Shown one piece after another: positions 4,414 to 60,684 of a DNA stretch of 64,000 bases. This DNA is from Anaerolineales bacterium (GTDB taxonomy: Bacteria > Chloroflexota > Anaerolineae > Anaerolineales > DRMV01): assembly GCA_027053355.1 (NCBI GenBank), contig JALUDX010000195.1, positions 846 through 64,845 of the forward strand, given 5' to 3'. The number at the start of each line of letters is the position of its first letter. Position 1 is the first letter of the stretch. A program made the position numbers and the translations under genes. The notes below the pieces were generated by a model. That model worked only from the letters and a program-made list of their open reading frames with translations. It did no database searches and was not told the origin of the DNA.

Positions 4414-4619
4414 GTAACTATTCAGCCACAAGGAAATAGATCACGGATAACACGGATTTTTAGGTCGCCAAGGTCGCCAAGATGACGCCAAGGCCGCCAA
4501 GAAGTGATGGCGAGCGTGGGCTTTTTAGTGTTTTTCGCCCAATCTGCGCTCATCTTTGGGTCTCTTTCGGCGTAATCTGCGAAATCTGTGGTTTCTTCTT
4601 GCCAAGGCTGAACAGTTAC
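4414..4619 (+). mobile_element. type-A MITE-like element (206 bp), complete
   Basis: TIRs GTAACTATTCAGCC / GGCTGAACAGTTAC. Flanking 8-mers are TTTCGGAG (4406..4413) and TTTTGGAG (4620..4627), matching 7/8. About 90% identical by eye to the copy at 54005..54210. No ORF. Confidence 0.8.
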
Positions 4620-4737: not shown

Positions 4738-4926
4738 CTACGGATAGCCACGGATGCTCACAGATTTTCAGGTCGCCAAGTCACGCAAAGGGACACAAAG
4801 ACACAGAGAGGGATACGCTAAAATGACGCCAAGCGCCAAGGCGTTGCTAGTATTTTTCGCCCAATCTGTGCCAATCTGTGAAATCTGTGGACGTTTTTCT
4901 GCGAAATCGGCGTAATCTGCGGTTTA
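4738..4926 (+). repeat. type-A-like repeat fragment lacking both TIRs
   Basis: Shares CGGATAGCCACGGAT, GACGCCAAG/GCGCCAAG words, TTTTTCGCCCAATCTGTG and AATCTGCGGTTT with type A but has no GTAAC..GTTAC ends. Confidence 0.55.
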
Positions 4927-10231: not shown

Positions 10232-10380
10232 GGCTCCTCCTCGGTGCTTGGGTGCTTGGGTGTTTGGGAACTCGGGTACTTGGGCGCCTCTCTTGGCGGC
10301 TGGCGTTTCTGTGCGCCTCCGCGCCTATCCGCCATCATCCGCGCTTGTCCACGGGCCATTTCCCAAAGGCCGCACCGTTA
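10232..10380 (+). repeat. type-B element right half (left end missing)
   Basis: GGTGCTTGGGTGCTTGGGTGTTTGGG microsatellite-like module, then CCGCGCCTATCCGCCATCATCCGCGCTTGTCCACGGGCC, ending in a degenerate right TIR GGCCGCACCGTTAC (10367..10380). Confidence 0.6.
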
Positions 10381-17435: not shown

Positions 17436-17500
17436 GGCCTCCAAACAGAAAAGTGCCTACTGCAGGGGCGAGTTGCGAATTGCGAGTTGCGAATTAGGAG

Positions 17501-17750: not shown

Positions 17751-17804
17751 ATTAGGGGACAAATTTTGGGGCACCGGGCACACCACGACATGGCAACGTG
17801 TCGC

Positions 17805-17894
17805 CGGCCTGTGCCAATCTGTGAAATCGGTAGATGTTTTTCTGCGAAATCTGCGAAATCTGTGGTTTCTCCTCAGTCAAGGCCGAATCGTTAC
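17805..17894 (+). repeat. type-A right-half fragment
   Basis: GTGCCAATCTGTGAAATCGG...CTGCGAAATCTGCGAAATCTGTGGTTTCTCCTC...GGCCGAATCGTTAC parallels the right third of type A. Confidence 0.55.
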
Positions 17895-33400: not shown

Positions 33401-34407
33401 ACCCTTCCGCGGAACGCATTTTGGGCGTAGCCGCAGCCCAGGCAGTAGGCCAACCTTTGAACCACTTTGCCGGCCTCTTTGGTGCAGCAGGTCACGAATG
33501 GCTCAAAGCCATCAGCCACTGGCGTGAGAAACCCCAACCTGCAACCCGGCCCACTTCGTTCGCCGCCCAAGTCGAACTGGAAGACAGCCGGGTCATCTCG
33601 GTGCACTTAGCGCCTGTTTTCTTCCGCCATGAGTTTTTAGGCTCGGTCGCGGTGTTCCGAGACATCACCCACCAGGTCGAAGTGGACCGCATGAAGAGCG
33701 AGTTCGTGGCCAACGTCTCTCACGAACTGCGCACCCCACTGACCGCCATCAAAGGGTATGTGGACTTGCTGCTCATGGGGGCTACCGGCAGCCTTACCCA
33801 GCAACAGCAACACTTTTTGGAAACCGTACGCGCCAACACCCAACGCCTGAACCTGTTAGTGGGCGACTTGTTAGACATCTCGCGCATCGAAACAGGGCAA
33901 GTGGCGCTGCACATGCAAACGGTCGACCTGGCCGCCTTGCTGCGCGAGGTGGTCGCAGAACAAGCCCGCCTGGCCAAAGAAAAAGGCCGGAAAGTACACA
34001 TCGAACACCGCCTGCCCCAAGGACTGCCGCCAGTATGGGGCGACCCAGAACGGCTGCGGCAGGTCATTGAAAACCTGGTCGAAAACGCGTATCGCTACAC
34101 CCCCGACGGTGGTCGGGTGCTGGTCACCGCCCGGCCAGTGGGGCGGGCGGTGCAAGTCGACGTCAGCGACACAGGTATCGGCATTCCCCCCGAAGAACAA
34201 GAGCGGGTATTCGAGCGATTTTACCGCATCGAAAGCCCCATGGTCATGGCCACGCCCGGCACCGGCCTGGGGCTGGCCATCGTCAAAACGTTAGTCGAAC
34301 GACACGGCGGCCGCATTTGGCTGAAAAGCACGGGTGTGCCAGGCGAAGGTAGCACGTTCTCCTTCACCATCCCCCTGGCCGCTGAAAATTCCCCTCGCGA
34401 GGCATAG
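27451..34407 (+). CDS. giant sensor histidine kinase: TM, ten GAF-like modules, PAS, HisKA, HATPase_c
   Basis: 2318 aa with an N-terminal hydrophobic helix. There are ten recurrences of the GAF-terminal helix motif (L..LA.Q.A.A..NA.L) spaced about 160-200 aa. PAS-like AILEAIADGVLVTDPEGKITLFNPSAERILG. H-box SHELRTPLTAIKGY. N/G boxes ENLVENAYRYTP, DTGIGIP and GTGLGLAIV. Confidence 0.9.
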   Translation: MFGAEILTLGIALALIGVSLLLIAGGLTRVQQTATAALASPLTAPQPEGGESSTTEEGVIVVLQGGRVHYLNARARQWFGLYPNDQPSLELLARRVRPQDDFFRLCTQPSKARLTLATQTLEAASYAVPYQQQKAIVLTLRPLHLLVSKKSPELRASTTEALEVFSELSQQVGAHLHLPSALQAAVAAVDRLLPSDVLEITLWDETHTFLIPYRYTSAGAEIFPENVSERYEPNQGLTGYLVQNRQPLLIRDLEQEMPVPPAVDRRRYPVRGYLGVPLLFNDEVIGTLEVASFAPNAYHTADLELLTLLAGPIAVALRNAQVFSQTQRQLQELRSLAEIAAATGEAKDPQRLIERLVHTVAPLLAAEIVGFLLYDEAHRLLQAQKPFVGLPEGFVSVYRAFIPAGSPADRLLQRGEPLRTDDASEDPQWQALGLADLSRTAGIRSSVLYPLWTGSRFLGFLQVANKPRQAPFTNADILALAHVAAQVTPVLENALLFRETRHRAQRAEALRRIASLAASHATLDEAFKFSVLELAHLVDARYAAVLLFDEEQNRLLPHLPSVYGIPPAVARRIGAIPGHRPDFHFTVTRSGRPFLSNDISQDKRVISAYETILNALPNIRSAMVVPLRVGQESVGEILLGHPEADHFDRNDLQMALTTAAQMALVVEREHLLAQSDASLRQQVEELRTMARIGRELSLLSSQQQLLAYAYQQMAELTQADCGYAFLLTAEGQPGLRVGDTGAVGLHPLERSAIQAQTAQRVDDFQNETAFPQPHEEVRAALVLPLVFHNRVLGVAHLHAKKAYHFDASRQRLASLLAQHVAAALGAAQQTETLRQENQRLQRQIHALQRLRQFLAQHAPLEHPFAALDDLVTEMQHATGFDAVLLARYEPTTGMLQPVTAPGFAQADPLPLDSLNLLLEDRFHHDGVYFIPAEARPPLPHNLTLPVPERPLPRLDTPRGWQAEDILLAPLRTDQGEPLGVLLLQAPRDGNRPDDDLFAVLRLFAAQAAWLLQVQAVQQAWETERQRLAAQATEAQEAAHIAQRDLPRWLRKDLQQALDRYTLARRAERLQVGLEITTLLNRQPSRDAVLNTLGQQLLERMGFNHVLIGEPATGENGQTVVRLVRTFGEVPSNLKLDLYLGQRNPLDETMRQRSVLIVNDMSRDQNWERSPLLQHLHAQSFIAFPITVEQHIQAMVLAVSQATLPTLSASDGQIFDLLGHQVGIVLQNLSLLARTSRRLREADLLLTFSRQLGVLDPERILNTLMESTLGALSSAHAGFIAMWDETQRVLLPRSVGGYAQPEAIFQITLGEDSLPAQVMLQGQPRRIAELDFATAYPLDTDALLAYHRLTAERMPVSSMMVPIRTGERALGVIVLDNFNAPNAFSMEDQMLVASLAQQTALTLENAYLLHTAEQRAAQLQALAQASSEFLAHSRSEEEVVASLLERLAEVLPYDGGTLWLREGERLTVRDARGLPNVEELLGVSVAVEDSRLFQDMLASRQPLVVPDTHQDERFPAAEAMPNRSWLGVPLRFEDRVLGVIALEKREPRFYTADWVQTAATFASQAAAALINAQLLAESLRRAEELDRRTQRLGLVYQAMAALSASLDPQHIANYTAEHLQRALGGIPTSVVLWEDEVATVVAESPPAEDQALPQALPAAPIFAHLAETRGLFRSEHYAEEPLLAPLTDFFTAHHAQAVVALPLVAGQTLLGALFFHLPDPDALTGDEVALAQTIAHQAAIALHNARLYETTRRFSEELEARVAERTQELQQEHHRAQTLLRIITELSASLDLDQVLNRTLGLLNEALSAEQSTVLLRKEGQPTLFYRAGHGYTDPPPLGGRPTQISATDSLAGWVIQHGEAVLIPDVRKDPRWQNTSSTDHEQHRSALAVPLIVAQEVLGVLLLFHREPNHFTPYHLDLAQATAKQIAVAITNAELFDLIRDQAEHLGKLLRQQEVEASRAKAILEAIADGVLVTDPEGKITLFNPSAERILGVAAAQAVGQPLNHFAGLFGAAGHEWLKAISHWREKPQPATRPTSFAAQVELEDSRVISVHLAPVFFRHEFLGSVAVFRDITHQVEVDRMKSEFVANVSHELRTPLTAIKGYVDLLLMGATGSLTQQQQHFLETVRANTQRLNLLVGDLLDISRIETGQVALHMQTVDLAALLREVVAEQARLAKEKGRKVHIEHRLPQGLPPVWGDPERLRQVIENLVENAYRYTPDGGRVLVTARPVGRAVQVDVSDTGIGIPPEEQERVFERFYRIESPMVMATPGTGLGLAIVKTLVERHGGRIWLKSTGVPGEGSTFSFTIPLAAENSPREA

Positions 34408-44000: not shown

Positions 44001-45074
44001 TCAAGGGGTGGGGGTAGGCGTCGGGGTGGAAGTGGGCGTCGCCGTAGGCAGCGCGCTGGTGGCCGAGGGCGTGGCCGTGGGCAGCAGACCGTTGAGCAGG
44101 TCTTGCAAGCCGGTCAAAAAGGTCTGGAACCGGGCGGTCTGCTGCGCCAACGCGTTCAGGTTGGCGTCGAGGTCTGCCAATTGCTGGGCCATGTCTTGTT
44201 GCTCGTCGGCCAAGGTTTGCTGCTGGTCGGCGAGTTGCTGCACCTGGCTGGCGACGCCCTTCAGGTCGGAAATCTGGCGCTGCAGCGCGTCGGTGGTCAT
44301 TTCTAAGCGGTTGAGCCGCTCTTGCATGGCCAGCACCTGCCGTTCGGTGCCCTGATAGCGGGCCTCCCCCGCGTAGTGCAAGGTGCCGTTGAGGGCGTGC
44401 AGCACGCCCAGGCTCAAGACAAAAGCGAGGAGGAAGCCCAACAGCCCGGTGGTCAGCGCCAGGAGCCAAGCCTCGCGGCGGGTGACGTAGTGGGGCTGCG
44501 ACGCCGCGGGGGAGCCCGCCGCCGCGGCCGCGGGCGCGGCCTCTTCCACCGCCGCGGCTTCGGGGGCGGGCGTTTCTTCGGCTGCGGGTGCGGCCTCTTC
44601 CGCCGCCGCGGCTTCGGGGGCAGGCGCTTCTTCGGCTGCGGGTGCTGCTTCTTCCACTGCCGCGGCTTCGGGGGCAGGCGCTTCTTCGGCCGCGGGCGCG
44701 GCCTCTTCCGCCGCCGCGGCTTCGGGGGCGGGCGTTTCTTCGGCCGCGGGCGCAGCCTCTTCCACTGCCGCGGCTTCGGGGGCAGGCGCTTCTTCGGCCG
44801 CGGGCGCGGCCTCTTCCGCCGCCGCGGCTTCGGGGGCGGGCGCTTCTTCGGCTGCGGGTGCGGCCTCTTCCGCCGCCGCGGCTTCGCCCACGGTCAGCCG
44901 CGGGGCCAGCGCCTCGACCAGGCTGGGGCGGATGCCGGGCACGCGGGTCAGGTCTTCCACCCGCTCGAAGGGACGCGCCGCAAGGATGCGCTCGGCCAGC
45001 ACTTCACCGATGCCGGGCAGCGCAACCAGTTCCTCTTTGGTCGCCTGGTTGAGGTCAATACGGTTTTCGCTCAT
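44001..45074 (-). CDS. ComEA-like helix-hairpin-helix protein with acidic tandem repeats, TM and coiled coil
   Basis: Start at MSENRIDLNQATKEELVALPGIGEVLAERI (HhH) after the RBS AGGAGGTGG. About 7 repeats of EAAAAEEAAPAAEEAPAP, a TM helix, a Q-rich coiled coil, and a C-terminal TPTSTPTPTPTP. Confidence 0.65.
   Translation of the reverse strand: MSENRIDLNQATKEELVALPGIGEVLAERILAARPFERVEDLTRVPGIRPSLVEALAPRLTVGEAAAAEEAAPAAEEAPAPEAAAAEEAAPAAEEAPAPEAAAVEEAAPAAEETPAPEAAAAEEAAPAAEEAPAPEAAAVEEAAPAAEEAPAPEAAAAEEAAPAAEETPAPEAAAVEEAAPAAAAAGSPAASQPHYVTRREAWLLALTTGLLGFLLAFVLSLGVLHALNGTLHYAGEARYQGTERQVLAMQERLNRLEMTTDALQRQISDLKGVASQVQQLADQQQTLADEQQDMAQQLADLDANLNALAQQTARFQTFLTGLQDLLNGLLPTATPSATSALPTATPTSTPTPTPTP
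44520..44888. repeat. 54-bp tandem repeat, about 6.8 copies, inside the ComEA-like gene
   Basis: Unit GCCTCTTCC(A/G)CCGCCGCGGCTTCGGGGGC(G/A)GGCG(T/C)TTCTTCGGC(T/C)GCGGG(T/C)GC(G/T) repeats head to tail. In frame, 18 aa per unit. Confidence 0.85.
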
Positions 45075-45109
45075 TGTCCACCTCCTTCGCTGGGGACGCA
45101 CTTTCGTGC

Positions 45110-46819
45110 TCAGGTCGAGAGCAAAAGTTGTCGTGCCGATTGGAGCATCTCTTCGTCCTCGCCGCCCAACATTTGGGCGAGTTCCTGCACTCGCGCTTCT
45201 CCCTCCAGCGGCTCCACCACGGTGACGGTGCGCCCCTGGCGCACCTGCTTGGCAACCCGAAAGTGATGGTCGCCATAGGCTGCCAGTTGGGGCAGATGGG
45301 TGATGACCAATACCTGATGGTGGCGGGCTAAGGCGCGCAATTTACGGCCTACCACCGCACCCAGCCGGCCGCCAATGCCCTGGTCGATTTCGTCGAAAAT
45401 CAAGGTCAGGGTGGGGTCGGCCAGCACCAAAACCCGTTTCAACGCCAACATCAGGCGGGCGCTTTCGCCGCCGGAGGCAATTTTGGCCAAGGGCTTGAAG
45501 CCTTCGCCAGGGTTGGGCGCCAGGAGGAATTCCACCTGATCTACCCCCCGGTCGTGGAAGGCCAGCCGCTGCCCGTCGGGCATGGGCAGGCCGTCGTCCG
45601 CGGGTTGCTGGCGGATTTGCACGCGGAAACGCGCCGCGGCCATGCGTAGGTCTTGCAATTCCGCTTCGATTTTTTGGGCTAAGCGGGTGGCCGCCTCTTG
45701 CCGTTGGGTGGAAAGGTGCTCGGCCTGCCGGGCCAGGTCGGCTTCCAGGGCTGTGGCTTCTTTTTCCAGCGCGGCCAGTTGTTCTTCCGCGTGGGTGAGG
45801 GTATCCAGTTCGGCCTGGGCGCGGCGGGCGTAGGCCAAAATTTCGTCGATCGTCGCACCGTATTTGCGCTTGAGGTCGTTGATGAGGGAAAGGCGCTCCT
45901 CGATTTCGTCGAGGCGTTGGGGGTCGAATTCGATGTTTTCCGCGTAGTCGCGCAACCGCCGCGCCAAGTCGGCCAGTTGGTCAGCCAGGTCGGTGGCCTC
46001 TTCGACCAGCGCGGCCTGGGAGGCGTCGATCTGGGCGATGGTTTGCAGGGCTTCGCTCACCTGGCCGAAGAGGTCGGTCAGGGCAGGGGCTTCCATGTTC
46101 CCCTCGTCGAGCAAAAACACAGCCTGCCGCGCCTGCTCAGCCAAGGTTTCGGCGTGCGCCAGCCGTTCCCGCTCCTGACGCAGGCGCTCTTCTTCCCCCG
46201 GCTGCAGGTCGGCGTTGTGAATTTCTTCGATCTGAAAAGCGAGAAAATCTGCCCGCCGGGCGGCTTCGGCCTCTTGCTGGCGGAGGGCTGCCCATTGTTT
46301 GCGCACGCTTTGCAAACGCCGGTAGGTCTGCCGGTAGGCGGCGACTTTTTCTTCCAGATGGGCGAAACGGTCGAGCAGGCGCAGGTGTTCGGGCACCCGA
46401 AAGAGGGAAAGGTGCTCGGCCTGACCGTGGATGTCGACCAGGCGTTGCCCTACGCGGCGCAGCAGGTTCAGGCTCACGGCCCGGCCGTTGATGCGGGCTA
46501 TGTGGCGCCCTTGGCGGCGGATTTCACGCCCCAAGGTCAGGTAGCGGGGGTCATCCCACAGACCTTCGGGCTCGAGCAGGGCCTGCAACGCGGGGCGCAC
46601 GGCCTCGTTGAGGCGGAAGGTGGCCTCCAGCAGGGCATGGGACGCCGCGGCGCGCACCATCACGCTTTCGGCGCGGCCGCCCAGCAGCAGGCTCACCGCG
46701 TCTACGATGATCGACTTGCCCGCGCCGGTCTCACCGGTAAACACGGTCAACCCAGGGCGCAGAGGCAGTTCCAGGCGTTCGATAATGGCAAAATTCTGGA
46801 TGCGAAGTTCTTCAATCAT
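45110..46819 (-). CDS. recN: DNA repair protein RecN
   Basis: Start at MIEELRIQNFAII. Walker A GETGAGKS, a long coiled coil, signature SGGESARLMLAL, and Walker B LIFDEID. Confidence 0.9.
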   Translation of the reverse strand: MIEELRIQNFAIIERLELPLRPGLTVFTGETGAGKSIIVDAVSLLLGGRAESVMVRAAASHALLEATFRLNEAVRPALQALLEPEGLWDDPRYLTLGREIRRQGRHIARINGRAVSLNLLRRVGQRLVDIHGQAEHLSLFRVPEHLRLLDRFAHLEEKVAAYRQTYRRLQSVRKQWAALRQQEAEAARRADFLAFQIEEIHNADLQPGEEERLRQERERLAHAETLAEQARQAVFLLDEGNMEAPALTDLFGQVSEALQTIAQIDASQAALVEEATDLADQLADLARRLRDYAENIEFDPQRLDEIEERLSLINDLKRKYGATIDEILAYARRAQAELDTLTHAEEQLAALEKEATALEADLARQAEHLSTQRQEAATRLAQKIEAELQDLRMAAARFRVQIRQQPADDGLPMPDGQRLAFHDRGVDQVEFLLAPNPGEGFKPLAKIASGGESARLMLALKRVLVLADPTLTLIFDEIDQGIGGRLGAVVGRKLRALARHHQVLVITHLPQLAAYGDHHFRVAKQVRQGRTVTVVEPLEGEARVQELAQMLGGEDEEMLQSARQLLLST

Positions 46820-49489: not shown

Positions 49490-49526
49490 GCTGAAGAGTA
49501 CTCCTCGTCTTTGGTAGCCTCGACCC

Positions 49527-49666: not shown

Positions 49667-49804
49667 CGCGCCTCTGATTACCCGACACAAAAGCAATCGT
49701 GCCCCGGCCGTTGTTTCATTGACCGGCAGATCTCATCTCGTCATGCCAAATCTTTACAAAAGTCTTGTTTTTCACGCCCTCTCCTCTCCCCCCAAGCCGC
49801 CCCC

Positions 49805-49936
49805 CTTCGACTTCGCTCAGGGCAGCCTTCGACTTCGCTCAGGGCAGCCTTCGTCTTCGCTCAGGGCAGCCTTCGTCTTCGCTCAGGGCAGCCTTCGTCT
49901 TCGCTCAGGGCAGCCTTCGTCTTCGCTCAGGGCGGC
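49805..49936. repeat. 22-bp tandem repeat, 6 copies
   Basis: CTTCG(A/T)CTTCGCTCAGGGCAGC repeated head to tail with no spacers. The last unit ends GGCGGC. Confidence 0.9.
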
Positions 49937-49942
49937 GGCTTT

Positions 49943-49984
49943 CCCCCCTCCCCTCTCCCGCAGCAGCGGGAGAGGGGAGGGGGG
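49943..49984. repeat. perfect 19-bp-arm G/C-rich hairpin
   Basis: CCCCCCTCCCCTCTCCCGC - AGCA - GCGGGAGAGGGGAGGGGGG. Confidence 0.9.
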
Positions 49985-52160: not shown

Positions 52161-53009
52161 TTACGCCCTCCGAGGAGCAGCGGCCTGCCCTTCAGGCCGT
52201 TGCAATTCGTCTTTGTGAAATTCGTGAATGCCGCCCTCGGCCAAGGCCACCAACACGGTCTGCTTGAGGGGGAAGACGTCGACCACCTTGCCTTCGCCTT
52301 GGGGCGTTTGCACCCGCTTTTTGCGCCGGGGCAGCCCTTTGGCGGCCTCTGCGTATTGCTCGTATTCGTACACCAGGCAGCAGCGCAGGCGGCCGCACAT
52401 GCCCGTGATTTCCGAAGGCGTGAGCGAAATGCCCTGCACTTTCGCCATTTTGATGGAAACCGGGCTAAAATCGGTGAGGAATTCCGCGCAACAGCGCACC
52501 TCGCGGCCGCACGCGCCCATGCCGGGCAACAGTTTGGCCACGTCGCGCGGCCCCACCCGGCGGAATTCCACCTGCCGCCGCGGGAACTTGCGGGCTAACT
52601 GGCCATGCAGTTTGCGGATGTCGGGCTTGGCGCCACCCACCACGCCATACAAAAAGGTGAGATACCGCTCATCGAAGGAAATCTCGGCCTCGACGATTTT
52701 GATCTCGGCGCATCCGAGGTCGCGGGCTTTTTGTTGGGCAGTGAGCAGGGCCTGGAGTTCCCGCTGGCGCAACAAACGGCGCAGGGTGAGGTCGCGGCCG
52801 GTGGCCTTGCGCAAGAGAGGCCGCCAGCCCTCTTCGGGCGGCTCGGTCGGCTCGGTGAGCACCCGCACTACCTCGCCAATCTGCAGGCCGCGGCGGCTGG
52901 GCACGATGACAAACTCGCCCGGCTGCACGTCGGGGCAGCAAGACGCCTCGTAATCATAAACCTTGCCCACCGGCCGGAAGCGCACACCCACGATATGCGG
53001 CATGGTCAT
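52161..53009 (-). CDS. PSP1-domain protein (YaaT/RicT-like)
   Basis: N-terminus IVGVRFRPVGKVYDYE, with Cys clusters CGREVRCCAEFL and CGRLRCCLVYE typical of the PSP1 C-terminal domain. Confidence 0.8.
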   Translation of the reverse strand: MTMPHIVGVRFRPVGKVYDYEASCCPDVQPGEFVIVPSRRGLQIGEVVRVLTEPTEPPEEGWRPLLRKATGRDLTLRRLLRQRELQALLTAQQKARDLGCAEIKIVEAEISFDERYLTFLYGVVGGAKPDIRKLHGQLARKFPRRQVEFRRVGPRDVAKLLPGMGACGREVRCCAEFLTDFSPVSIKMAKVQGISLTPSEITGMCGRLRCCLVYEYEQYAEAAKGLPRRKKRVQTPQGEGKVVDVFPLKQTVLVALAEGGIHEFHKDELQRPEGQAAAPRRA

Positions 53010-53021
53010 CGGCGTGTCCTG

Positions 53022-53849
53022 TCAGACCACCTGAATATCAACGGGAGAAGCGCCGCCAATTTCCGACAGGCGCGCGGCCACCTGTTGAGCGAGGGAAACG
53101 AACGTCTGCGCCACGGGCGATTCGGGCGCGCTGACCACGATGGGGCGCCCCTGGTCGCCGCCTTCTCGCACCGCGGGGTCGATGGGTATCGCCGCGAGGA
53201 AGGGCACGCCCGCGGCTTCGGCCAGCCGTTGGCCGCCGCCGCTGCCGAACAAGTCCATCCGGGTGCCGTCGGGCAGTTCCAGGTAACTCATGTTTTCCAC
53301 TACCCCTAAGACGGGCACTTTGAGTTGCTGGAACATCTGCAGGCTGCGGCTGGCATCTTCCAACGAAACCTGCTGCGGCAGGGTCACGATGAGCCCGCCG
53401 GCCAGGGGCAAGGTCTGCGTCAGGCTCAGCGGTGCGTCGCCGGTGCCCGGGGGCAGGTCGGCGATCAGGTAGTCCAGTTCCCCCCAATCGACATCGCCCA
53501 CAAACTGGCGGATGGCGGAATGGAGCATGGGCCCCCGCCAGATGAGCGCCTGACCAGGCCGCACCAAAAAGCCAATGGACACCAGTTTCACGCCAAAGGC
53601 TTCGGCAGGCTGGATGCGCCCTCCTTTGGCCGGGGGCAGGTGTTCCACACCCATCATGGTTGGGACGTTGGGGCCGTAAATGTCGGCATCGAGCAAGCCG
53701 ACCCGCGCGCCCTGTTGGGCCAGCGCCACGGCCAGGTTGACGGCAACGGTGCTTTTGCCTACACCGCCTTTGCCCGAAGCAACGGCAATCACATAACGAG
53801 CGGGTGATTTCATCAAACCACGACCGCCCGAAGGAGCAGCAGAAGCCAT
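53022..53849 (-). CDS. Mrp/NBP35/ApbC-family Fe-S cluster carrier ATPase
   Basis: Deviant Walker [11 protein letters not shown] and a C..C-free short form, 275 aa. An alternative start MKSPARY is at 53813. Confidence 0.85.
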
Positions 53850-53892
53850 ACTTCACCTCATGGAAAAGAGTTTGTGATGTTGTAGCGTGCTG

Positions 53893-53901
53893 ATTATACC
53901 A
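53893..53901 (-). promoter_or_regulatory. candidate extended -10 promoter TGGTATAAT (minus strand) for the mrp-PSP1 unit
   Basis: The reverse complement of ATTATACCA is TGGTATAAT, about 45 nt upstream of the 53849 start. Confidence 0.45.
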
Positions 53902-53946
53902 TCCGTCGCGGCGCCCCCCAACGTCTGGGCATTCTTTGGCAGGGCC

Positions 53947-54004
53947 GTCACCGTTGAGTCTCAAAGAGACTCTACGGATTGCGCAGGCGGAAAATCACAC
54001 AAGA
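53947..54004 (+). repeat. type-B left-arm fragment abutting a type-A element
   Basis: GTCACCGTTGAGTCTCAAAGAGACTCTACGGATTGCGCAGGCGGAAAATCACAC parallels 41232..41285 and 21678..21728. Confidence 0.6.
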
Positions 54005-54210
54005 GTAACTATTCAGCCACAAGGGAATAGACCACGGATAGCACGGATTTTTAGGTCGCCAAGGTCGCCAAGATGACGCCAAGACCGCCAAGAAGCGAGG
54101 ACGAGCGTGGGCTTTTTAGTATTTTTCGCCCAATCTGTGCTAATCTGTGAAATCTATGGTTGTCTTTCTGCATAATCTGTGGTTTCTTCTTGCCAAGGCT
54201 GAACAGTTAC
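54005..54210 (+). mobile_element. type-A MITE-like element (206 bp), complete
   Basis: TIRs GTAACTATTCAGCC / GGCTGAACAGTTAC. Same length as, and colinear with, 4414..4619. No TSD (flanks ACACAAGA vs GATAGGTC), possibly because it sits in a mosaic. Confidence 0.8.
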
Positions 54211-54306
54211 GATAGGTCTTTACAAGGCACAGCGTTCTCTGTGGAATGGCTCGGCAAGCCGCCCCCGTCAAGGGCTGCGAGGCGCGCCTCGGCGGCCTCA
54301 CCCCCG

Positions 54307-54639
54307 TCATCGTGCGGCGAGTTCGTGGCTCGACAAAAAAGTGCGGATCTCTTCGCAAGCCTGCTGATATTCGGCCAACAGGGCCTGGTCATCCCCCTTG
54401 AAGCGTTCGACCGCGCGGCGGGCGCACGCGGCGCAGCCGCGAATCGCCCGCTGGCTGTCGATGGTGCATGTGCCGCAGCGGGCGAGGCGGGTCATCATTA
54501 AAACAAAGCCCAGGCGTTCTACCGAGGCGGCAGGTTGCTGCCGCACCTCGTCGACCAGGGCTTGCCAGGTTTCACCCCGCAGATCACGCAACGTGCTGAT
54601 CAAACGGGCGGGGAAAAGCAGTTCCAGATGGTCGTACAA
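54307..54639 (-). CDS. hypothetical 110-aa protein with CxxC-x10-CxxC motif
   Basis: RCGTCTIDSQRAIRGCAACARR. Downstream of nuoI on the same strand. No family recognised. Confidence 0.45.
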   Translation of the reverse strand: MYDHLELLFPARLISTLRDLRGETWQALVDEVRQQPAASVERLGFVLMMTRLARCGTCTIDSQRAIRGCAACARRAVERFKGDDQALLAEYQQACEEIRTFLSSHELAAR

Positions 54640-54780
54640 TCGCCCTCCGGGGGAAGCAACGATTCAGCCTCAACCGAAGACACATCGGCGTCTCTCTGCG
54701 TTAAATCCGCCAGCCGCGGCTCGGAGCGGGTTGGCGGCCAAGCGGGGCTCAGCCGCCAACCCTTGGAAACAGCCCGCTTC

Positions 54781-55452
54781 CTACTCCTTCTTCGCTTGCT
54801 GTGCCTTAGCCTTGGCTTTGGCGGCCCGAGCCGCAGCGGCTTTTGCCCGCGCCTCTGCTGCTTTCCGCTTGGCCTCTTCGGCCTTGCGGCGGGCTTCTTC
54901 TTCCCGCTTGTAATTTTCGGGGCGAATCTGGGCGTAGTAAGACACCGGTTTCAGCAATTTCTGCAGGTCGAAGATGTTGTCGGCTTTGCGGTCATAGGTC
55001 GCCAACTCGTAATTGTGATCCATCTTGATGGAATCGAAGGGGCAGTATTCCGCACACAGGCCGCAGTTCATGCACATGTCGATATCGATGTAAAACTCGG
55101 CCGGTTTGGGGCGAGGCCGCCCGGTTTTCGGGTCTTTCGAGCGCACAATCCAGATACATTGCGCGGGGCACACCTTGGTGCAGATGCCGCAAGCCGTGCA
55201 GCGCGGATCCAGGGTGCCGTCTTCTTGCTCTTCGCCCACCAAAAAGGGCACAAAGCGAAATTCTTCGGGCACCGGCAGTTTTTCATCCGGGTATTGAATG
55301 GTGAAAATACCCTGCACCTCTGCACTGCTACGGTAGGCAATGCCCTCGTCGGTGCGGTAGCGCGCCTTGCCGCGCTTGAAATCGTCCACGTAGGTGGCAA
55401 TCAGGCGCTTAATGGTTACGCCCAAACCTTTGAGGATTCCGGAACCATCCAT
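54781..55452 (-). CDS. nuoI: NADH-quinone oxidoreductase subunit I with Lys/Ala-rich C-terminal extension
   Basis: Two 4Fe-4S motifs, CTACGICTKVCP and CMNCGLCAEYCP. The C-terminal tail of about 45 aa reads EEARRKAEEAKRKAAEARAKAAAARAAKAKAKAQQAKKE. Confidence 0.85.
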   Translation of the reverse strand: MDGSGILKGLGVTIKRLIATYVDDFKRGKARYRTDEGIAYRSSAEVQGIFTIQYPDEKLPVPEEFRFVPFLVGEEQEDGTLDPRCTACGICTKVCPAQCIWIVRSKDPKTGRPRPKPAEFYIDIDMCMNCGLCAEYCPFDSIKMDHNYELATYDRKADNIFDLQKLLKPVSYYAQIRPENYKREEEARRKAEEAKRKAAEARAKAAAARAAKAKAKAQQAKKE

Positions 55453-55464
55453 GGCACACTCCGT

Positions 55465-57213
55465 TTAGCGGTCGGTTTCGCCCAACACGATGTCGATCGA
55501 GCCGAGAATGATCACCGTGTCGGCCACTTTTTGGCCTTTGGTCATTTCAGCCAGCGCGGTCAGGTTGATGAACGATGGCGCCCGCACGTGATAGCGCCAC
55601 GGGTTGCCTTTGCCCGTCGAGACCACATAAAAGCCCAGTTCGCCTTTCGGCCCTTCCACCCGACCGTAGGACTCGCCCGCCGGGACCCGATGCTGATATT
55701 GCGGCTTGCCGCTCATAATCGGCCCTTCGGGAATCTGCTGCAAAGCCTGCTGAATGATGCGAATGCTCTGCCGCACCTCGTCCATGCGGATCAGGTAGCG
55801 GTCGTACACGTCGCCGTGGTAGCGCACGGCCACGTCGAAGTCGAACCGGTCGTAGATGCTGTAAGGCTCAGCCCGGCGCACGTCGTAAGGCACACCCGAA
55901 GCCCGCAACACCGGGCCCGCGGCCGAGTAAGCGATGGCCTGTTCGGGGGTCAGCACGCCTACGCCTTCACCGCGCACGCGTACGATTTCGCTGTTGGTCA
56001 GGTAGCGGTCGAGTTCGTCGATCCGCCGCGGCAGGCGCTCGAAGGCCAAGTCGTGGATTTTCTTCATCACGTCCTCGGGGATGTCGCGCGCCACCCCGCC
56101 AAAGCGGAAGTAATTGACCATCATCCGCGACCCGGCAACGGCCTCGAACACATCCAAAATCAGTTCCCGCTCTTCGATGGCATACAGCGAGGGCGTGAAA
56201 TACGCGCCCATGTCGTTCAAGAACATGCCGATGGCGAAAATGTGATTTTGGATACGGGTGAGTTCCGCCATGATGACGCGGATGTACTCCGCCCGCTCAG
56301 GGGGTTTCACCCCGAGGAGTTTTTCCACCGCTAAGGCGTAGCCAAAGTTGTTACTCATCGGCGAGAGGTAATCCAACCGGTCAGTGAACGGCATGTTCAT
56401 CAACCAGGTGTTGCGCTCGCCGATTTTTTCGTGATTGCGGTGCAGGTAGCCCATCACCGGTTCCAAATCCACCACGGTTTCGCCGTCCAAGGTCACCACC
56501 ATGCGAAACACGCCGTGGGTGGAAGGGTGCTGGGGCCCCAGGTTGACCACGATTTGCTCGGTGGGCAAGTCGTCCGAGGCTTTCTCTACCCGCCCCAAGC
56601 CTTCGTAAATCAAGGCGTTGGTGTTGTCGGGCGTCCACTGGGCAGGGTCGAAGCCCGCGGGGTAATCCACGTTTTTGCCGAAGGGGTTGCGCTCTTCGGC
56701 GCGGAAGACCTTGCCCTCGGGGAAACGGCTCTTGTAAGGCTTGTGTTCGGCCTCAAAATACGGTTCCCGCCAATCTTTGCGCAGCGGGTGGCCGTGGAAG
56801 CCTTCCCACAACAAAATCCGTTTCAAGTTGGGGTGGCCTTCGAACTTGATCCCCAGCAGGTCCCACGCCTCGCGCTCCTGGAAATCTGCGCCGGGGTAAA
56901 TGGGGACTAAAGAAGGCACCACCGGGTTGTCTCTGGGCACCTGCACTTTGAACACCAACGCGGGCCCGCCGGTGGTTTTGTACGCGTGGTACACCACCTC
57001 CATTTGGCCTTGGGGGAGGTAATCCACGCCGGTCACCGACGAGAGATAATCGTAGCCCAGTTCATCGCGCAGGGTGCGGGCAAAGTCGGTCAAAGCGTTG
57101 GCCTCGACCACATAGCCCTCGTAGCCTTTACGCTCGTCCTTCCGCACCACTTTGGGGAAACGAGAAAGCAGCGTATCTTCTTCGTTTTGAATCATCACCG
57201 TTTGTTCGCTCAT
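55465..57213 (-). CDS. nuoCD: fused NADH-quinone oxidoreductase subunits C and D
   Basis: 582 aa. The N-terminal 30-kDa NuoC part has [18 protein letters not shown]. The NuoD part has [22 protein letters not shown] and ends IVLGETDR. Confidence 0.9.
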
Positions 57214-57227
57214 GGAACCACTCCCAC

Positions 57228-57896
57228 TTAGGCTTGGGCGGCTTCGGGTTCAGCGGCCGCGGCGGCCTCTTGTTCGGCCTTTTGGCGGGTGTATTCGCGG
57301 ATCCGGTCATATTCCCGCGGGTCCATCACGTCGGGCCCCAACACCGGGATGGGAATCATCTCGGCCCGACGGCCGTAGACCTCTTTGATGGTCTGACGAT
57401 CCACTTTTTCTTGCAATTTCATCAGACCGTAAATCAGGGCTTGAGGGGTCGGCGGGCAGCCGGGGATGTACACATCCACCGGCAGGTATTGGTCGATGCC
57501 CGAGACCACGTTGTACCCTTCTTTGAAGGGGCCGCCGCCCGAAGCGCACGCGCCCATGGCCACCACGTATTTGGGCTCTGCCATCTGGTTATAAAGGCGC
57601 ACCACCTGGGGCAGCATCTTCTTGGTGACCGTCCCCGCGACGATCATCACGTCGGCCTGGCGGGGGCTAGCGCGCATCACTTCCATCCCAAAGCGGGCGA
57701 AATCGAAGCGGGCTGCTGCCGTACAGATCATCTCGATCGCGCAGCAGGCCAGGCCGAACATCATCGGCCAGAGGGAATTGCGCCGCCCCCAGTTGTAGAT
57801 ACGATCCAGCGTGGTGATCGTAACCACCCCTTGCAGGTCTTCGGGGATCGGGTATTGGGGGGAATTCAAACCCTCATCCTTTGGTTTTGTGCTCAT
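57228..57896 (-). CDS. nuoB: NADH-quinone oxidoreductase subunit B
   Basis: [19 protein letters not shown] and PGCPP motifs (cluster N2 ligands). Confidence 0.9.
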
Positions 57897-57926
57897 AGAC
57901 CTTCTCCTCGGGTAGGATGGGACCGT

Positions 57927-58148
57927 TCAGCCTTGCTCTTCTTCTAAGGTCATTTCCAACCATTCGCGATAAATCGCCAACAGAATGTCGTCGTTGGCCA
58001 AAGCGGGGTCGTCGTCGAAGTCGGGCTGCGCCACCACCCAGCGGTAAATCTGACGCAACGAAACTTCGCTCAAATCCTCTGCCGGGTGCTGCTTGCGCAG
58101 GCGCTCGGCCAACGCGTAGGTGGCTTCCCAGGTCAACGGTTCACACAT
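57927..58148 (-). CDS. iscX: IscX (YfhJ)-like Fe-S assembly accessory protein
   Basis: 73 aa, colinear with E. coli IscX as recalled (LTWE...DFDDDPALANDDILLAIYREWLE vs LKWT...[24 protein letters not shown]). Confidence 0.7.
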   Translation of the reverse strand: MCEPLTWEATYALAERLRKQHPAEDLSEVSLRQIYRWVVAQPDFDDDPALANDDILLAIYREWLEMTLEEEQG

Positions 58149-58335
58149 GCCAGCCTCTGCGCTTTGCTACAGTGACTCGCTTTGCAGCCAACGCCTCAAA
58201 TTATACCCCGCTTTGGCGACGAATTACGCGAATTTTCTTTTTCGTAATTCGGCATCGCACCGTATTTACGAAAAGACTTTTTCGCGAAAATCATAGGGTG
58301 CGGTGCACGGGCCGTGCACGCCACACCGGCCGGCC

Positions 58336-60177
58336 TCATTCCACAGTCACCGATTTGGCCAGGTTCCGCGGCTGGTCCACATCCAACCCGCGCATGGCCG
58401 CGATGTGATAGGCCAACATCTGCAAAGGCACCACCGTGACCACCGGGCTCAACAGCCAGGGCGTGGGCGGCACCCACAGCACTGCATCGGCCAAGGGCGG
58501 AATCAGGGTATCCCCTTCGGTCACCACGGCAACGACCGGCGCGCCCCGCGCCTTGGCCTGCTCTACCTGGCTCACCATTTTTTCGTACCAGGGGTCGCGG
58601 GGCGCGAGGGCGATGACCGGCGTTTCTTCGTCCAAGAGCGCGATGGGGCCGTGCTTCATCTCGCCCGCGGGGTAGCCCTCCGCGTGAATGTAGGAAATTT
58701 CTTTGAGTTTGAGCGCACCTTCGTAGGCGGTGGCCATGTTGATGCCGCGGCCGATGTACAGGCAACTGCGCACGTCTTTCAACTGCCGGGCGACCGCGAT
58801 CACCTCTTCCTCCCGTTCTAACACCTGGCTCACCAGATAGGGCACGAGGCGCAAATCGGCCACCAAGCGGCGGCGTTCCGCAGCGGGCAAGGTGCCCCGC
58901 AAATCGCCCAACAACACGGCCAGCATGTACAAATCCACCAAGGGCGCGGTGTAGGCTTTGGTCGAAGCCACGCCGATTTCGGGGCCCACTTGCATGGAAA
59001 TGTAGCCCTGGGCAATGCGCATGGCCTGGGAGCCAATGGCGTTGACGATCGACCACAGGGTCGCCCCTTTGCGCCGTCCCTCTTCCATCGCGGCCAAGGT
59101 ATCGGCCGTCTCGCCCGATTGGCTTATGGCTAACACCACATCGTCGGGCCCCACCAGGGGGTCGGCATAGCGAAACTCCGAGGCCACCATCACTTCCACA
59201 GGCACCCGCGCGATGCGTTCCAACAGGGTTTTGCCCACCAGCCCGGCGTGGTAAGCCGTGCCGCAGGCGGTGATGAAAATTTTGCGCACCCGGCGGGCAA
59301 GTTCCGGGGTCAGGTTGAGGGTGTCCAGATAAATTTTTCCGCCTTCGAAGTCGACACGGCCGGCAATGGTGTCGGTCAGGCCGCGCACCTGCTCGTGAAT
59401 TTCTTTTTGCATGAAATGGCGGTATTCGCCCTTTTCCGCCGCCACCGGATCCCACGGCACCACGGTCGGTTGCAGGGGCTGCGGGTTGCCGTCGAGATCC
59501 ATCAGGTGCACGGCATCCCGCTGCACCACCACCATTTGCCGCGGCTCTAAAAAGGCCACCCGCCGGGTATGCTCCAAAATCGCGGGCAGGTCAGAAGCCA
59601 CCAGCATTTCGTCCTCGCCCAGGCCCACCACAATGCCGCCCGCGTTGCCCAGCCGCGCGGCCACGATTTTGTCGGGCTCCAAAGCCGACATGACCACCAC
59701 CGCGTTGGAACCCTCCAACAATTGCAGGGTTTGGCGCACGGCCTCGACCAGGCCGGTCTCGCGGCTGAGGAAGCGTTCGATCAAATGGGCAATGACCTCG
59801 CTGTCGGTCTCGGAGCGGAAATGGGCGCCTTCTGCGGCCAGTTCGTCACGCAAGGCGAGGAAGTTTTCCACAATGCCGTTGTGCACCACCACCACTTGCC
59901 CGCGATCGCTCACGTGGGGGTGGGCATTGCGCTGCGAAGGCTCGCCGTGGGTCGCCCAGCGGGTATGGCCGATGCCCACATGGCCGCTCAGGGGTTGCGC
60001 TTCGACCAATGCCTGCAGGCGATGCAACTTCCCCACCGCGCGGCGCAATTGCACGCCCCGCTCGGTGAGCACGGCCAGCCCCGCCGAGTCGTAGCCGCGG
60101 TATTCCAACCGCTTCAAGCCGTTGAGGATGATTGGCGTCGCGTCTCGAGGCCCAATATAGCCCACAATGCCACACAT
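58336..60177 (-). CDS. glmS: glutamine--fructose-6-phosphate aminotransferase
   Basis: Start at MCGIVGY (Cys nucleophile must follow Met; RBS GGAGGTG 5 nt upstream). Two SIS domains, and the C-terminus ends AKSVTVE. Confidence 0.93.
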   Translation of the reverse strand: MCGIVGYIGPRDATPIILNGLKRLEYRGYDSAGLAVLTERGVQLRRAVGKLHRLQALVEAQPLSGHVGIGHTRWATHGEPSQRNAHPHVSDRGQVVVVHNGIVENFLALRDELAAEGAHFRSETDSEVIAHLIERFLSRETGLVEAVRQTLQLLEGSNAVVVMSALEPDKIVAARLGNAGGIVVGLGEDEMLVASDLPAILEHTRRVAFLEPRQMVVVQRDAVHLMDLDGNPQPLQPTVVPWDPVAAEKGEYRHFMQKEIHEQVRGLTDTIAGRVDFEGGKIYLDTLNLTPELARRVRKIFITACGTAYHAGLVGKTLLERIARVPVEVMVASEFRYADPLVGPDDVVLAISQSGETADTLAAMEEGRRKGATLWSIVNAIGSQAMRIAQGYISMQVGPEIGVASTKAYTAPLVDLYMLAVLLGDLRGTLPAAERRRLVADLRLVPYLVSQVLEREEEVIAVARQLKDVRSCLYIGRGINMATAYEGALKLKEISYIHAEGYPAGEMKHGPIALLDEETPVIALAPRDPWYEKMVSQVEQAKARGAPVVAVVTEGDTLIPPLADAVLWVPPTPWLLSPVVTVVPLQMLAYHIAAMRGLDVDQPRNLAKSVTVE

Positions 60178-60200
60178 GGTCACCTCCATGGCGTCTGATG

Positions 60201-60375: not shown

Positions 60376-60684
60376 TCGCAAACGCCACGCCTGAGCGTTT
60401 TGTCCGCGGAATTACTTCCACGGCGTTGTGGCTCAGGTCGTCAATTCCCCCTGATGGTGGAGGGCCGGGGTGTGGCATCCCCGGGAGGGCATCCGCCGAT
60501 CCTTCGATTTTCCCGCCCGGTGGCTCCGAGCGGTTAGCCTTGCCTCGCGACAAGGAACCCTCATCCTCGTCACCCGCGCGCACGCGGGCCTGGCGCTCTT
60601 CCCTCCGATGGGTTGTCGTTTGAGATGGCACCTCCTGAAGGGTGGTTTGCGGGGTGATTGTATCACAATTCGCGGCGCTGGCCG

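What the first reader, a model, noticed from the sequence alone, without database searches (positions are those of the whole stretch)
53022..58148. Isolated Q-module cluster iscX-nuoB-nuoCD-nuoI flanked by Fe-S biogenesis factors, without nuoA/H/J-N or nuoE-G
Only the hydrogenase-like core subunits of complex I are encoded here: B, fused C/D, and I with a unique Lys/Ala-rich tail. The gene in the usual nuoA position is an IscX-like protein, and glmS lies beyond it. Downstream of nuoI come a 110-aa CxxC-x10-CxxC protein, repeat elements, and an Mrp/NBP35-type Fe-S carrier. From memory, the eukaryotic Mrp homolog Ind1/NUBPL is a dedicated complex I Fe-S assembly factor. IscX next to a SUF-type organism (sufS-sufU at the window start) is itself unusual. 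The arrangement suggests either a dedicated assembly or regulatory unit for the Fe-S-bearing Q module, or a separate soluble/peripheral NuoBCDI-type complex.
Basis: partly seen in the sequence, partly recalled or inferred. Interest (0 to 1): 0.6.

Follow-up and report, generated by a model that had tools for sequence, protein, structure and literature searches.

The report
Detached complex I Q-module operon
These genes encode the electron-transfer arm (NuoB, NuoCD, NuoI) of an ordinary membrane-bound respiratory complex I whose membrane-arm genes sit in a separate operon, a split already described for Anaerolineae; the only fresh points are three small conserved partner genes of untested function.

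Summary
The genes are present as described, on the minus strand: glmS | iscX-like | nuoB | fused nuoCD | nuoI | 110-aa four-Cys ORF | repeat | mrp-like | ricT. No other nuo gene lies in the 64 kb. The cluster is not an orphan Q module. It is conserved across 80 Anaerolineales/Chloroflexota species.

Corrections:
- The IscX call holds, and the gene is coupled to nuoB in about 40% of relatives.
- The Mrp-like ATPase has no cysteine and lacks the CxxC cluster-binding motif, as do 59 of 59 relatives. It is not a canonical Ind1/ApbC-type carrier.
- In this species its DUF59 domain is replaced by a dispersed repeat.
- The NuoI Lys/Ala tail is found across the clade.

The conserved operon link of iscX, cys110 and the CxxC-less ATPase to nuoBCDI appears undescribed. 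It is modestly interesting.

The parts
57927..58148 (-). iscX-like gene (73 aa), first gene of the unit, 30 nt upstream of nuoB
   Evidence: PF04384 E=1.6e-11; TIGR03412 46.6 bits against cut-off 40.4. 34% identical to E. coli IscX. Directly upstream of nuoB in 25/65 related loci. It overlaps the called nuoB start in 5 of the 6 distinct relative lineages sampled by gene calls and lies 36 nt upstream in the sixth.
57228..57896 (-). nuoB (222 aa), cluster N2 subunit, with a charged C-terminal extension
   Evidence: PF01058; TIGR01957 237 bits. The CC...C...C N2 ligands align with E. coli NuoB.
55465..57213 (-). Fused nuoCD (582 aa)
   Evidence: PF00329 plus PF00346; TIGR01962 463.5 bits against cut-off 459.35; NF004739 462 bits against 360. 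His233 and Tyr282 align with E. coli H224 and Y273. No NiFe-ligand cysteines; C-terminus reads ...LGETDR.
54781..55452 (-). nuoI (223 aa), two [4Fe-4S] motifs plus an A/K/E/R-rich tail of about 40 aa
   Evidence: The best NCBIfam match is TIGR01971 NuoI (E=9.5e-27, 93 bits, below its 113-bit cut-off), so the nuoI assignment rests on operon context and the cluster motifs. Two CxxCxxCxxxCP motifs align with E. coli NuoI. Similar tails occur in nearly all 73 related NuoI proteins.
54307..54639 (-). cys110: orphan, all-helical 110-aa protein with invariant C55, C58, C69 and C72
   Evidence: Coding-type GC3. Present after nuoI in 38/71 loci, median gap 37 nt. Four invariant Cys. No Pfam, NCBIfam or PDB match by sequence or fold. 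291 clusters in 1.84 billion representatives.
53967..54210 (.). Dispersed intergenic repeat, sitting where relatives encode the DUF59 domain of mrp
   Evidence: Copies at 4414-4619 (92-95% identical), 4848-4908 and 17791-17893.
53893..53901 (-). Promoter-like extended -10 box (TGgTATAAT), 44 nt upstream of the mrp ATG
   Evidence: Read directly from the sequence. The consensus scan did not report it because the -35 match is weak. Inference only.
53022..53849 (-). mrp-like P-loop ATPase (275 aa), with no cysteine, no CxxC and no DUF59 domain
   Evidence: PF10609 E=1e-95. Below the NCBIfam ApbC and MrpORP cut-offs. 46% identical to E. coli Mrp, but the CSNC motif is replaced by LELPDG. 0/59 relatives have CxxC. 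64/68 relatives have an N-terminal DUF59 domain that this protein lacks.
52161..53009 (-). ricT/PSP1 (282 aa), 12 nt downstream of mrp
   Evidence: NF041131 176.5 bits against cut-off 70; PF04468. Follows mrp within 600 nt in 48/58 loci.
58200..58205 (-). TATAAT box, 52 nt upstream of the iscX ATG: a candidate promoter for iscX-nuoB-nuoCD-nuoI(-cys110)
   Evidence: Read directly from the sequence. Inference only.

Best explanation
nuoB, nuoCD and nuoI encode the quinone-reducing peripheral arm (Q module; clusters N2, N6a and N6b) of a membrane-bound complex I of the Anaerolineae '2M' type. In this lineage the ancestral nuo operon is split. The membrane-arm genes form a separate operon elsewhere in the genome, outside this window: nuoA-H-J-K, a lengthened nuoL, two nuoM and nuoN. 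No nuoE/F/G genes accompany either part. The B, CD and I products are made from this locus, receive three [4Fe-4S] clusters, and dock onto NuoH/NuoA to complete the enzyme.

What is shown: the gene identities, the catalytic residues, and the split in relatives. What is inferred: that this genome carries the same membrane-arm operon, and that the two sets of products assemble into one enzyme.

Three lineage-restricted genes travel with the Q-module genes. They are an IscX-like acidic protein ahead of nuoB, a four-Cys helical protein after nuoI, and a CxxC-less Mrp/MinD-family ATPase followed by ricT. They are most likely maturation or assembly helpers, or accessory subunits, for the Fe-S-bearing arm. 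This rests only on conserved operon linkage.
For: Subunit identity:
- NCBIfam and Pfam assign NuoB, NuoD/NuoC and NuoI. The NuoD equivalog cut-offs are passed.
- The quinone-site His and Tyr, the N2 cysteines and both NuoI cluster motifs are conserved. NiFe ligands are absent.

The split:
- The window has no other nuo gene.
- 80 species-level genomes (NuoCD 65-94% identical) share the order (iscX)-nuoB-nuoCD-nuoI-(cys110)-mrp-ricT.
- GCA_964435005.1 contig CAYSXA010000030.1 carries that cluster and, about 3.6 kb downstream, nuoA-H-J-K-L(731 aa)-M(515)-M(490)-N(486), followed by the ATP synthase genes.
- At least 17 metagenome contigs whose NuoH matches this clade at roughly 50% identity or more have nuoA directly followed by nuoH with no B/CD/I; all ten that extend through nuoN carry two nuoM. 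Most lower-ranked NuoH matches (one at 53%, the rest ≤51%) sit in the canonical A-B-C-D-(EFG)-H-I... order.
- Three further NCBI assemblies show the same membrane operon.

Literature:
[quoted passage not shown] Linkage of the partner genes is documented.
Against: - The membrane-arm operon was not seen in this organism itself. Only 64 kb is available, and no NuoH contig from the 96.8%-identical public assembly (GCA_054009415.1) was identified among the four NuoH homologues looked up.
- No expression or protein data exist.
- The electron donor is unknown, because no nuoEFG lies near either operon.
- The roles of iscX, cys110 and the mrp-like gene rest on gene order within one phylum-level lineage, which may partly reflect shared ancestry.
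- In this genome the mrp linkage is loosened: a 457-nt gap, a repeat insertion, and probably its own promoter.
Confidence: 0.85

Rival explanations
1. The locus is a dedicated Fe-S maturation unit for the Q module. IscX-like (iron or desulfurase modulator), Cys110 (transient cluster or metal carrier) and the Mrp-like ATPase (an Ind1/NUBPL analogue) would deliver [4Fe-4S] clusters to NuoB and NuoI as they are made.
For: - iscX overlaps or abuts nuoB in every subfamily member sampled.
- cys110 follows nuoI at a median of 37 nt, and mrp follows cys110 at a median of 14 nt, with some overlaps.
- nuoI-mrp adjacency holds in 63/65 loci, whereas upstream glmS is kept in only 16/42.
- Cys110 has four invariant Cys.
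- Most relatives' Mrp carries a DUF59 domain with the conserved TTPACP Cys.
- Established knowledge: Ind1/NUBPL is needed for mitochondrial complex I Fe-S assembly.
Against: - The Mrp-like protein lacks the CxxC that binds the bridging cluster in ApbC, Nbp35 and Ind1, as do 59/59 relatives. In this genome it has no cysteine and no DUF59 domain.
- iscX is absent from about 60% of related loci and cys110 from about 45%, so neither can be essential.
- E. coli IscX acts on IscS, while the window shows only SufS/SufU.
- There is no biochemical evidence.
Confidence: 0.3
2. NuoB, NuoCD and NuoI form an autonomous soluble or peripheral oxidoreductase that works without the antiporter-like membrane arm.
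For: The three genes stand alone in this 64 kb without any membrane subunit. The long charged tails on NuoB and NuoI could in principle mediate other contacts.
Against: - In relatives, the partner operon nuoA-H-J-K-L-M-M-N lacks exactly these three subunits and would be non-functional without them.
- Only one B/CD/I set is seen near it.
- NuoD keeps the quinone-site His and Tyr, which lie at the interface with NuoH.
- The literature already treats the two gene sets as one enzyme (PMC7117926).
Confidence: 0.04
3. The cluster is the core of an Ech/Mbh-like group 4 [NiFe] hydrogenase or a related energy-converting module, not complex I.
For: NuoB, NuoD and NuoI are homologous to the small, large and ferredoxin-like subunits of group 4 hydrogenases. 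Weak NCBIfam hits to hydrogenase subunits appear far down the lists.
Against: - NuoD passes the complex I equivalog cut-offs, and the hydrogenase models score negligibly.
- The N- and C-terminal NiFe cysteine pairs are absent.
- No hyp maturation genes or hydrogenase membrane subunits lie nearby.
Confidence: 0.01

Closest known systems
Chloroflexi-type '2M' complex I (Chadwick, Hemp, Fischer & Orphan 2018, ISME J; as summarised in PMC7117926 and PMC6606698)
   Same: nuoCD is fused. nuoB-CD-I is detached from the rest of the operon. In relatives the membrane operon has a second nuoM and a lengthened NuoL (722-731 aa). The taxon is the same (Anaerolineae).
   Different: Nothing essential differs. 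The papers I could read do not mention iscX, the four-Cys ORF, or the mrp-like/ricT genes that travel with nuoBCDI. The primary paper was not available to me.
11-subunit complex I without an N-module (Moparthi & Hagerhall 2011, PMC3144371; cyanobacterial NDH-1, archaeal Fpo-like)
   Same: The subunit set is A, B, C, D, H, I, J, K, L, M, N, with no nuoEFG in or next to either operon. NiFe ligands are absent.
   Different: Here there is an extra NuoM, a C/D fusion, and a split into two transcription units. Whether nuoEFG exist elsewhere in the genome is unknown. One related contig (L115) has a separate 14-subunit operon beside the 2M one.
Ind1/NUBPL and bacterial ApbC/Mrp Fe-S carriers
   Same: Same P-loop (KGGVGKS) ParA/Mrp fold: 46% identical to E. 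coli Mrp, PF10609 E=1e-95. The gene sits beside complex I Fe-S subunit genes.
   Different: It lacks the CxxC motif that ligates the transferable [4Fe-4S] cluster and has no Cys at all here. It falls below the NCBIfam ApbC and MrpORP cut-offs. Its DUF59 domain is lost in this species.
E. coli IscX (YfhJ) of the isc operon
   Same: It passes the TIGR03412 and PF04384 thresholds. It is 34% identical with no gaps, including the DFDDDP...IL.AI..WL core.
   Different: Its genomic context is nuoB, not iscS-iscU-hscBA-fdx. The only Fe-S biogenesis genes visible here are SufS and SufU.

Membership tests
Respiratory complex I Q module (NuoB/NuoC/NuoD/NuoI) | NuoB carries the four cysteines that bind cluster N2 (CCxxE...C...C-P) | tested here: met
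   The alignment with E. coli NuoB shows [16 protein letters not shown] and IPGCPP. TIGR01957 scores 237 bits against a cut-off of 142.7.
Respiratory complex I Q module (NuoB/NuoC/NuoD/NuoI) | NuoD has the quinone-site His and Tyr and lacks the NiFe-ligand cysteine pairs | tested here: met
   H233 and Y282 align with E. coli NuoCD H224 and Y273. No Cys pairs at either terminus. TIGR01962 and NF004739 are above their cut-offs.
Respiratory complex I Q module (NuoB/NuoC/NuoD/NuoI) | NuoI has two CxxCxxCxxxCP motifs (clusters N6a and N6b) | tested here: met
   CTACGICTKVCP and CMNCGLCAEYCP. The full-length NuoI models score below their cut-offs (best 93 bits against 113), probably because of insertions and the tail.
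Respiratory complex I Q module (NuoB/NuoC/NuoD/NuoI) | Membrane partners NuoA/H/J/K/L/M/N are encoded in the same genome | not testable with these tools
   They are absent from the 64-kb window, and the rest of the genome is not available. The feature is met in a relative on a single contig and in other clade members.
2M complex I, Chloroflexi arrangement | nuoB-nuoCD-nuoI is detached from the other nuo genes, with nuoC and nuoD fused | tested here: met
   The definition is taken from PMC7117926.
2M complex I, Chloroflexi arrangement | A second nuoM and a lengthened NuoL in the membrane operon | not testable with these tools
   It cannot be checked for this genome. In relatives, NuoL is 722-731 aa and there are two or more PF00361 NuoM genes before NuoN.
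IscX (TIGR03412 / PF04384) | The profile score is above the curated cut-off | tested here: met
   46.6 bits against 40.4, and 45.1 bits against 25. BLASTP against E. coli IscX gives E=9e-12.
IscX (TIGR03412 / PF04384) | It sits in an isc operon and acts on IscS | tested here: not met
   The context is glmS and nuoB. All sampled homologues of this subfamily lie upstream of nuoB. Interaction with a desulfurase cannot be tested here.
Mrp/NBP35/ApbC/Ind1 Fe-S cluster carriers | Deviant Walker A P-loop (KGGVGKS/T) and the ParA/NUBPL fold | tested here: met
   [10 protein letters not shown]; PF10609 at 320 bits.
Mrp/NBP35/ApbC/Ind1 Fe-S cluster carriers | A conserved CxxC motif that ligates the bridging, transferable [4Fe-4S] cluster | tested here: not met
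   E. coli ENMSVHICSNCG aligns with [11 protein letters not shown]. The protein has no Cys, and 0/59 relatives have the motif. The NCBIfam ApbC score (282 against 348) and the MrpORP score (292 against 450) are both below cut-off.
Group 4 [NiFe] hydrogenase (Ech/Mbh/Hyc) | The large subunit has N-terminal RxCGxC and C-terminal DPCxxC NiFe ligands | tested here: not met
   The corresponding positions read GPQHPSTHG and ...LGETDR.
RicT (YaaT/PSP1) | The NCBIfam subfamily score is above the cut-off | tested here: met
   NF041131 at 176.5 bits against 70; PF04468.

The most novel reading that the evidence does not exclude
The detached Q-module operon of Anaerolineae complex I has recruited its own lineage-specific helpers. 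These are an IscX-like protein translationally coupled to nuoB, a previously unclassified four-Cys helical protein (Cys110 family, about 290 clusters, no Pfam family), and a CxxC-less, DUF59-fused Mrp ATPase. Together they would form either a dedicated bacterial assembly line for clusters N2/N6a/N6b or new accessory subunits of the enzyme. The conserved charged NuoI tail might serve as the docking site for the unknown electron donor, since no NuoEFG genes accompany either operon.
Probability: 0.25. Interest if true: 0.55.

Novelty: new member of a known kind. Interest (0 to 1): 0.25.

Why it matters
The headline feature, an 'isolated' Q module, is a known operon split and needs no new biology. 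This heads off a misreading as a novel soluble NuoBCDI complex or a bacterial Ind1 system.

What remains useful is a clean comparative data set. In one bacterial order, the Fe-S-bearing arm of complex I is genetically uncoupled from the membrane arm. It is consistently accompanied by an IscX homologue, an unclassified four-Cys protein and a cysteine-free Mrp-like ATPase.

Bacterial complex I assembly factors are almost unknown, so these are testable candidates. Anaerolinea thermophila, a cultured species whose MAG-derived locus shows the same layout, would be the place to test them. The CxxC-less Mrp also warns against transferring the 'Fe-S carrier' label by Pfam name alone.

Tried and rejected
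- Exact-protein look-up of the window's NuoCD found nothing on record. I reached close relatives through IscX instead.
- The Chadwick 2018 primary paper is not held under its DOI or its PMC id. I rely on two papers that summarise it.
- An apparent NuoI-Cys110 fusion in L048 came from a tblastn alignment running across a TAG stop. It was rejected after I read the DNA.
- Longer Cys110-family proteins (P0218, P0239, P0256, P0257) gave no informative domain fusions.
- The idea that Cys110 replaces the DUF59 domain of Mrp was rejected. 35 loci have both.
- The sigma-70 and terminator scan gave background-level counts and missed the by-eye TATAAT boxes.
- Four NuoH homologues were looked up in the hope of finding the membrane operon of the 96.8%-identical assembly GCA_054009415.1. 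All belonged to other assemblies.
- Literature searches for IscX with nuoB, or Ind1/ApbC with nuo, found no report of this linkage.

Full report
**1. What is in the sequence**

The minus strand of window 52161-60189 carries, in order:
- glmS, 58336-60189;
- a 73-aa IscX-like gene, 57927-58148;
- nuoB, 57228-57896;
- a fused nuoCD, 55465-57213;
- nuoI, 54781-55452;
- a 110-aa ORF with CxxC-x10-CxxC, 54307-54639;
- a 457-nt spacer;
- an Mrp/ParA-type ATPase gene, 53022-53849;
- ricT/PSP1, 52161-53009;
- an M20 amidohydrolase gene.

The IscX call is sound. PF04384 gives E=1.6e-11 and TIGR03412 gives 46.6 bits against a cut-off of 40.4. The protein is 34% identical to E. coli IscX over 61 ungapped residues.

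NuoD passes the complex I equivalog cut-offs (TIGR01962, NF004739). Alignment with the E. coli subunits shows:
- the N2 cysteines in NuoB;
- both CxxCxxCxxxCP motifs in NuoI;
- the quinone-site His and Tyr in NuoCD (H233 and Y282, matching E. coli H224 and Y273);
- no NiFe-ligand cysteines.

tblastn with all thirteen E. coli Nuo proteins finds only B, CD and I in the 64 kb. Queries made from Anaerolineae NuoA/H/J and the ORFs of a relative's nuoK-to-nuoN region also find nothing. The start of the window does encode a partial SufS and a SufU (TIGR01994 above cut-off).

**2. Where the other nuo genes are**

A scan of one genome per species with the NuoCD protein returned 80 loci. All are Anaerolineales or other Chloroflexota MAGs, 65-94% identical. 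They share the order (iscX)-nuoB-nuoCD-nuoI-(cys110)-mrp-ricT.

In L002 (78% identical NuoCD), nuoA, nuoH and nuoJ lie downstream on the same strand, with nuoA directly followed by nuoH. This was seen by tblastn and confirmed with Pfam.

Gene calls for that contig (GCA_964435005.1, CAYSXA010000030.1) show the full picture:
- iscX, nuoB, nuoCD, nuoI, a 121-aa cys110 homologue, DUF59-mrp (358 aa), ricT;
- five unrelated genes on the other strand;
- nuoA, nuoH, nuoJ, nuoK, nuoL (731 aa), nuoM (515 aa), nuoM (490 aa), nuoN (486 aa), then the ATP synthase genes.

A metagenome scan with that NuoH gave the same result. At least 17 contigs, most with NuoH 52-68% identical to the query, have nuoA directly followed by nuoH without B/CD/I, and all ten that extend through nuoN carry two nuoM. 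Most lower-ranked NuoH matches (≤51% identity, plus one at 53%) sit in canonical A-B-C-D-(E-F-G)-H-I-J-K-L-M-N operons. Three more NCBI assemblies show the same membrane operon.

This is the layout reported for cultured Chloroflexi with '2M complex I'. PMC7117926, citing Chadwick et al. [quoted passage not shown] So the 'isolated Q module' is the detached half of a split operon for an ordinary membrane-bound enzyme. I could not show the membrane operon in this organism itself. The window is 96.8% identical to GCA_054009415.1 contig JBPNBH010000133.1, but none of the NuoH homologues I looked up belonged to that assembly.

**3. The partner genes**

*iscX.* A profile iterated on the loci finds it in 25 of 65 loci that have enough upstream sequence. 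It is always immediately upstream of nuoB and never elsewhere within 10 kb. In 5 of the 6 distinct relative lineages checked by gene calls it overlaps the called nuoB start by 4-14 nt; in the window's own species the gap is 30-36 nt. Databases already name these proteins IscX. I found no paper linking IscX to nuoB.

*cys110.* It has coding-type codon composition. It follows nuoI in 38 of 71 loci at a median of 37 nt. It has four invariant cysteines. It belongs to a small family of 291 clusters at E≤1e-3 among 1.84 billion representatives. It has no Pfam, NCBIfam or PDB relative. The AlphaFold model (pLDDT 79.6) is all-helical, with the cysteines in a low-confidence loop. It has no significant Foldseek match.

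*mrp-like gene.* nuoI is followed by this gene within 1.5 kb in 63 of 65 loci. Upstream glmS, by contrast, is retained in only 16 of 42 loci and at variable distance. In 64 of 68 relatives the protein starts with a DUF59 (FeS_assembly_P) domain. Once that domain is counted, mrp begins a median of 14 nt after cys110, or 95 nt after nuoI where cys110 is absent. In most relatives the whole set therefore looks like one operon.

**4. Two corrections that matter**

First, the Mrp-like protein is not a canonical Fe-S carrier. E. coli Mrp reads ENMSVHICSNCG where this protein reads [11 protein letters not shown]. The protein has no cysteine at all. None of 59 relatives has a CxxC at that position. It scores below the NCBIfam ApbC and MrpORP cut-offs. 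The defining feature of ApbC, Nbp35 and Ind1 is therefore tested and not met. The protein may still act as an ATPase chaperone. In relatives, the single conserved DUF59 cysteine (TTPACP) could still matter.

Second, in this species the DUF59-coding stretch is missing. In its place lies a dispersed intergenic repeat (53967-54210), with copies at 4414-4619 that are 92-95% identical. A TGgTATAAT box lies 44 nt upstream of the shortened mrp (read by eye, not detected by the scan). Here mrp-ricT is probably a separate transcription unit.

The NuoI A/K/E/R tail is not unique to this genome either. Nearly all 73 related NuoI proteins end in a similar 15-40-residue charged tail.

**5. How it most likely works**

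*Shown:* the identity and catalytic residues of B, CD and I; the split gene organisation in relatives; the conserved linkage of the partner genes.

*Inferred:* the three products assemble with the separately encoded membrane arm into a 2M-type complex I. With no nuoEFG at either locus, the electron donor is unknown. The literature speculates about ferredoxin for 2M enzymes (PMC6606698). iscX, cys110 and the mrp-like ATPase are candidates for maturation or accessory roles. I put that at about 0.25-0.3, because iscX and cys110 are each missing from roughly half the clade and the ATPase lacks cluster ligands.

*Rivals:* an autonomous soluble NuoBCDI complex is disfavoured by the complementary membrane operon. 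An Ech/Mbh-like hydrogenase core is disfavoured by the residue tests.

**6. Verdict**

The gene calls and the notion of linked helpers hold. The 'isolated complex' reading and the 'Ind1-like Fe-S carrier' reading do not.
- The core arrangement is already published for this group. This locus is another member of it, from an uncultured Anaerolineales species.
- The undescribed part is the conserved iscX/cys110/CxxC-less mrp linkage, which is of modest interest.

Noticed in passing
window 60380-60608 (-): A glmS ribozyme (Rfam RF00234, 39.7 bits against a gathering score of 37) lies in the leader of glmS. The 5' end of the + strand transaldolase ORF listed by the ORF listing (from a GTG at 60470) overlaps it; gene calls in the close relative start that gene much later (364 aa against 448), so the overlap is probably only an over-extended ORF.
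   Followed up: partly
window 53967-54210, 4414-4619, 4848-4908, 17791-17893; a second family at 10302, 19379, 21737 and 41750; a third at 49507, 60201 and 62516: Several families of dispersed intergenic repeats of about 50-250 nt (REP/MITE-like, containing CACAGATT and ATCCGTG motifs). One copy occupies the place of the lost DUF59-coding part of mrp. Copies also occur in the 96.8%-identical public contigs.
   Followed up: partly
window 49782-49957: A tandem array of about 8 copies of a 22-nt unit (CCTTCGTCTTCGCTCAGGGCAG) lies in the intergenic region between an ABC-type permease gene and the fumarylacetoacetase-family gene.
   Followed up: no
window 53022-53849 (-): A cysteine-free Mrp/ParA ATPase. 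The whole clade's Mrp neighbours of nuoI have ELPDG in place of CxxC. This looks like a distinct CxxC-less Mrp subfamily, usually fused to DUF59.
   Followed up: yes
L040 2409-2894: One relative has an extra, stand-alone 161-aa NuoB paralogue (PF01058, 55% identical) about 400 nt upstream of iscX-nuoB. It sits next to FGE-sulfatase and pterin dehydratase genes.
   Followed up: partly
L115 267-10933: A metagenome contig has a canonical nuoA-B-CD-E-F-G-H operon on one strand, placed divergently beside a 2M-type nuoA-nuoH. Some members of the clade therefore have two complex I enzymes.
   Followed up: no
window 27451-34407 (+): A 2318-aa histidine kinase with about nine GAF domains, plus PAS, HisKA and HATPase domains. 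Response-regulator-like ORFs flank it.
   Followed up: no
window 11372-15013 (-) and 15021-17444 (-): Two large adjacent S-layer-homology (SLH) proteins. The second has seven LVIVD repeats. They share internal 189-nt periodic repeats.
   Followed up: no
window 44453-44940: 54-nt (18-codon) tandem repeats lie within a GC-rich stretch. The coding strand was not settled: ORFs are listed on both strands, 44001-45101 (-) and 44322-45266 (+).
   Followed up: no
L172 18854-21170; L174 19309-21218: In relatives, the 2M membrane-arm operon (ending in nuoN) is immediately followed by the F-type ATP synthase operon (atpI-like, a, c, b/delta).
   Followed up: no
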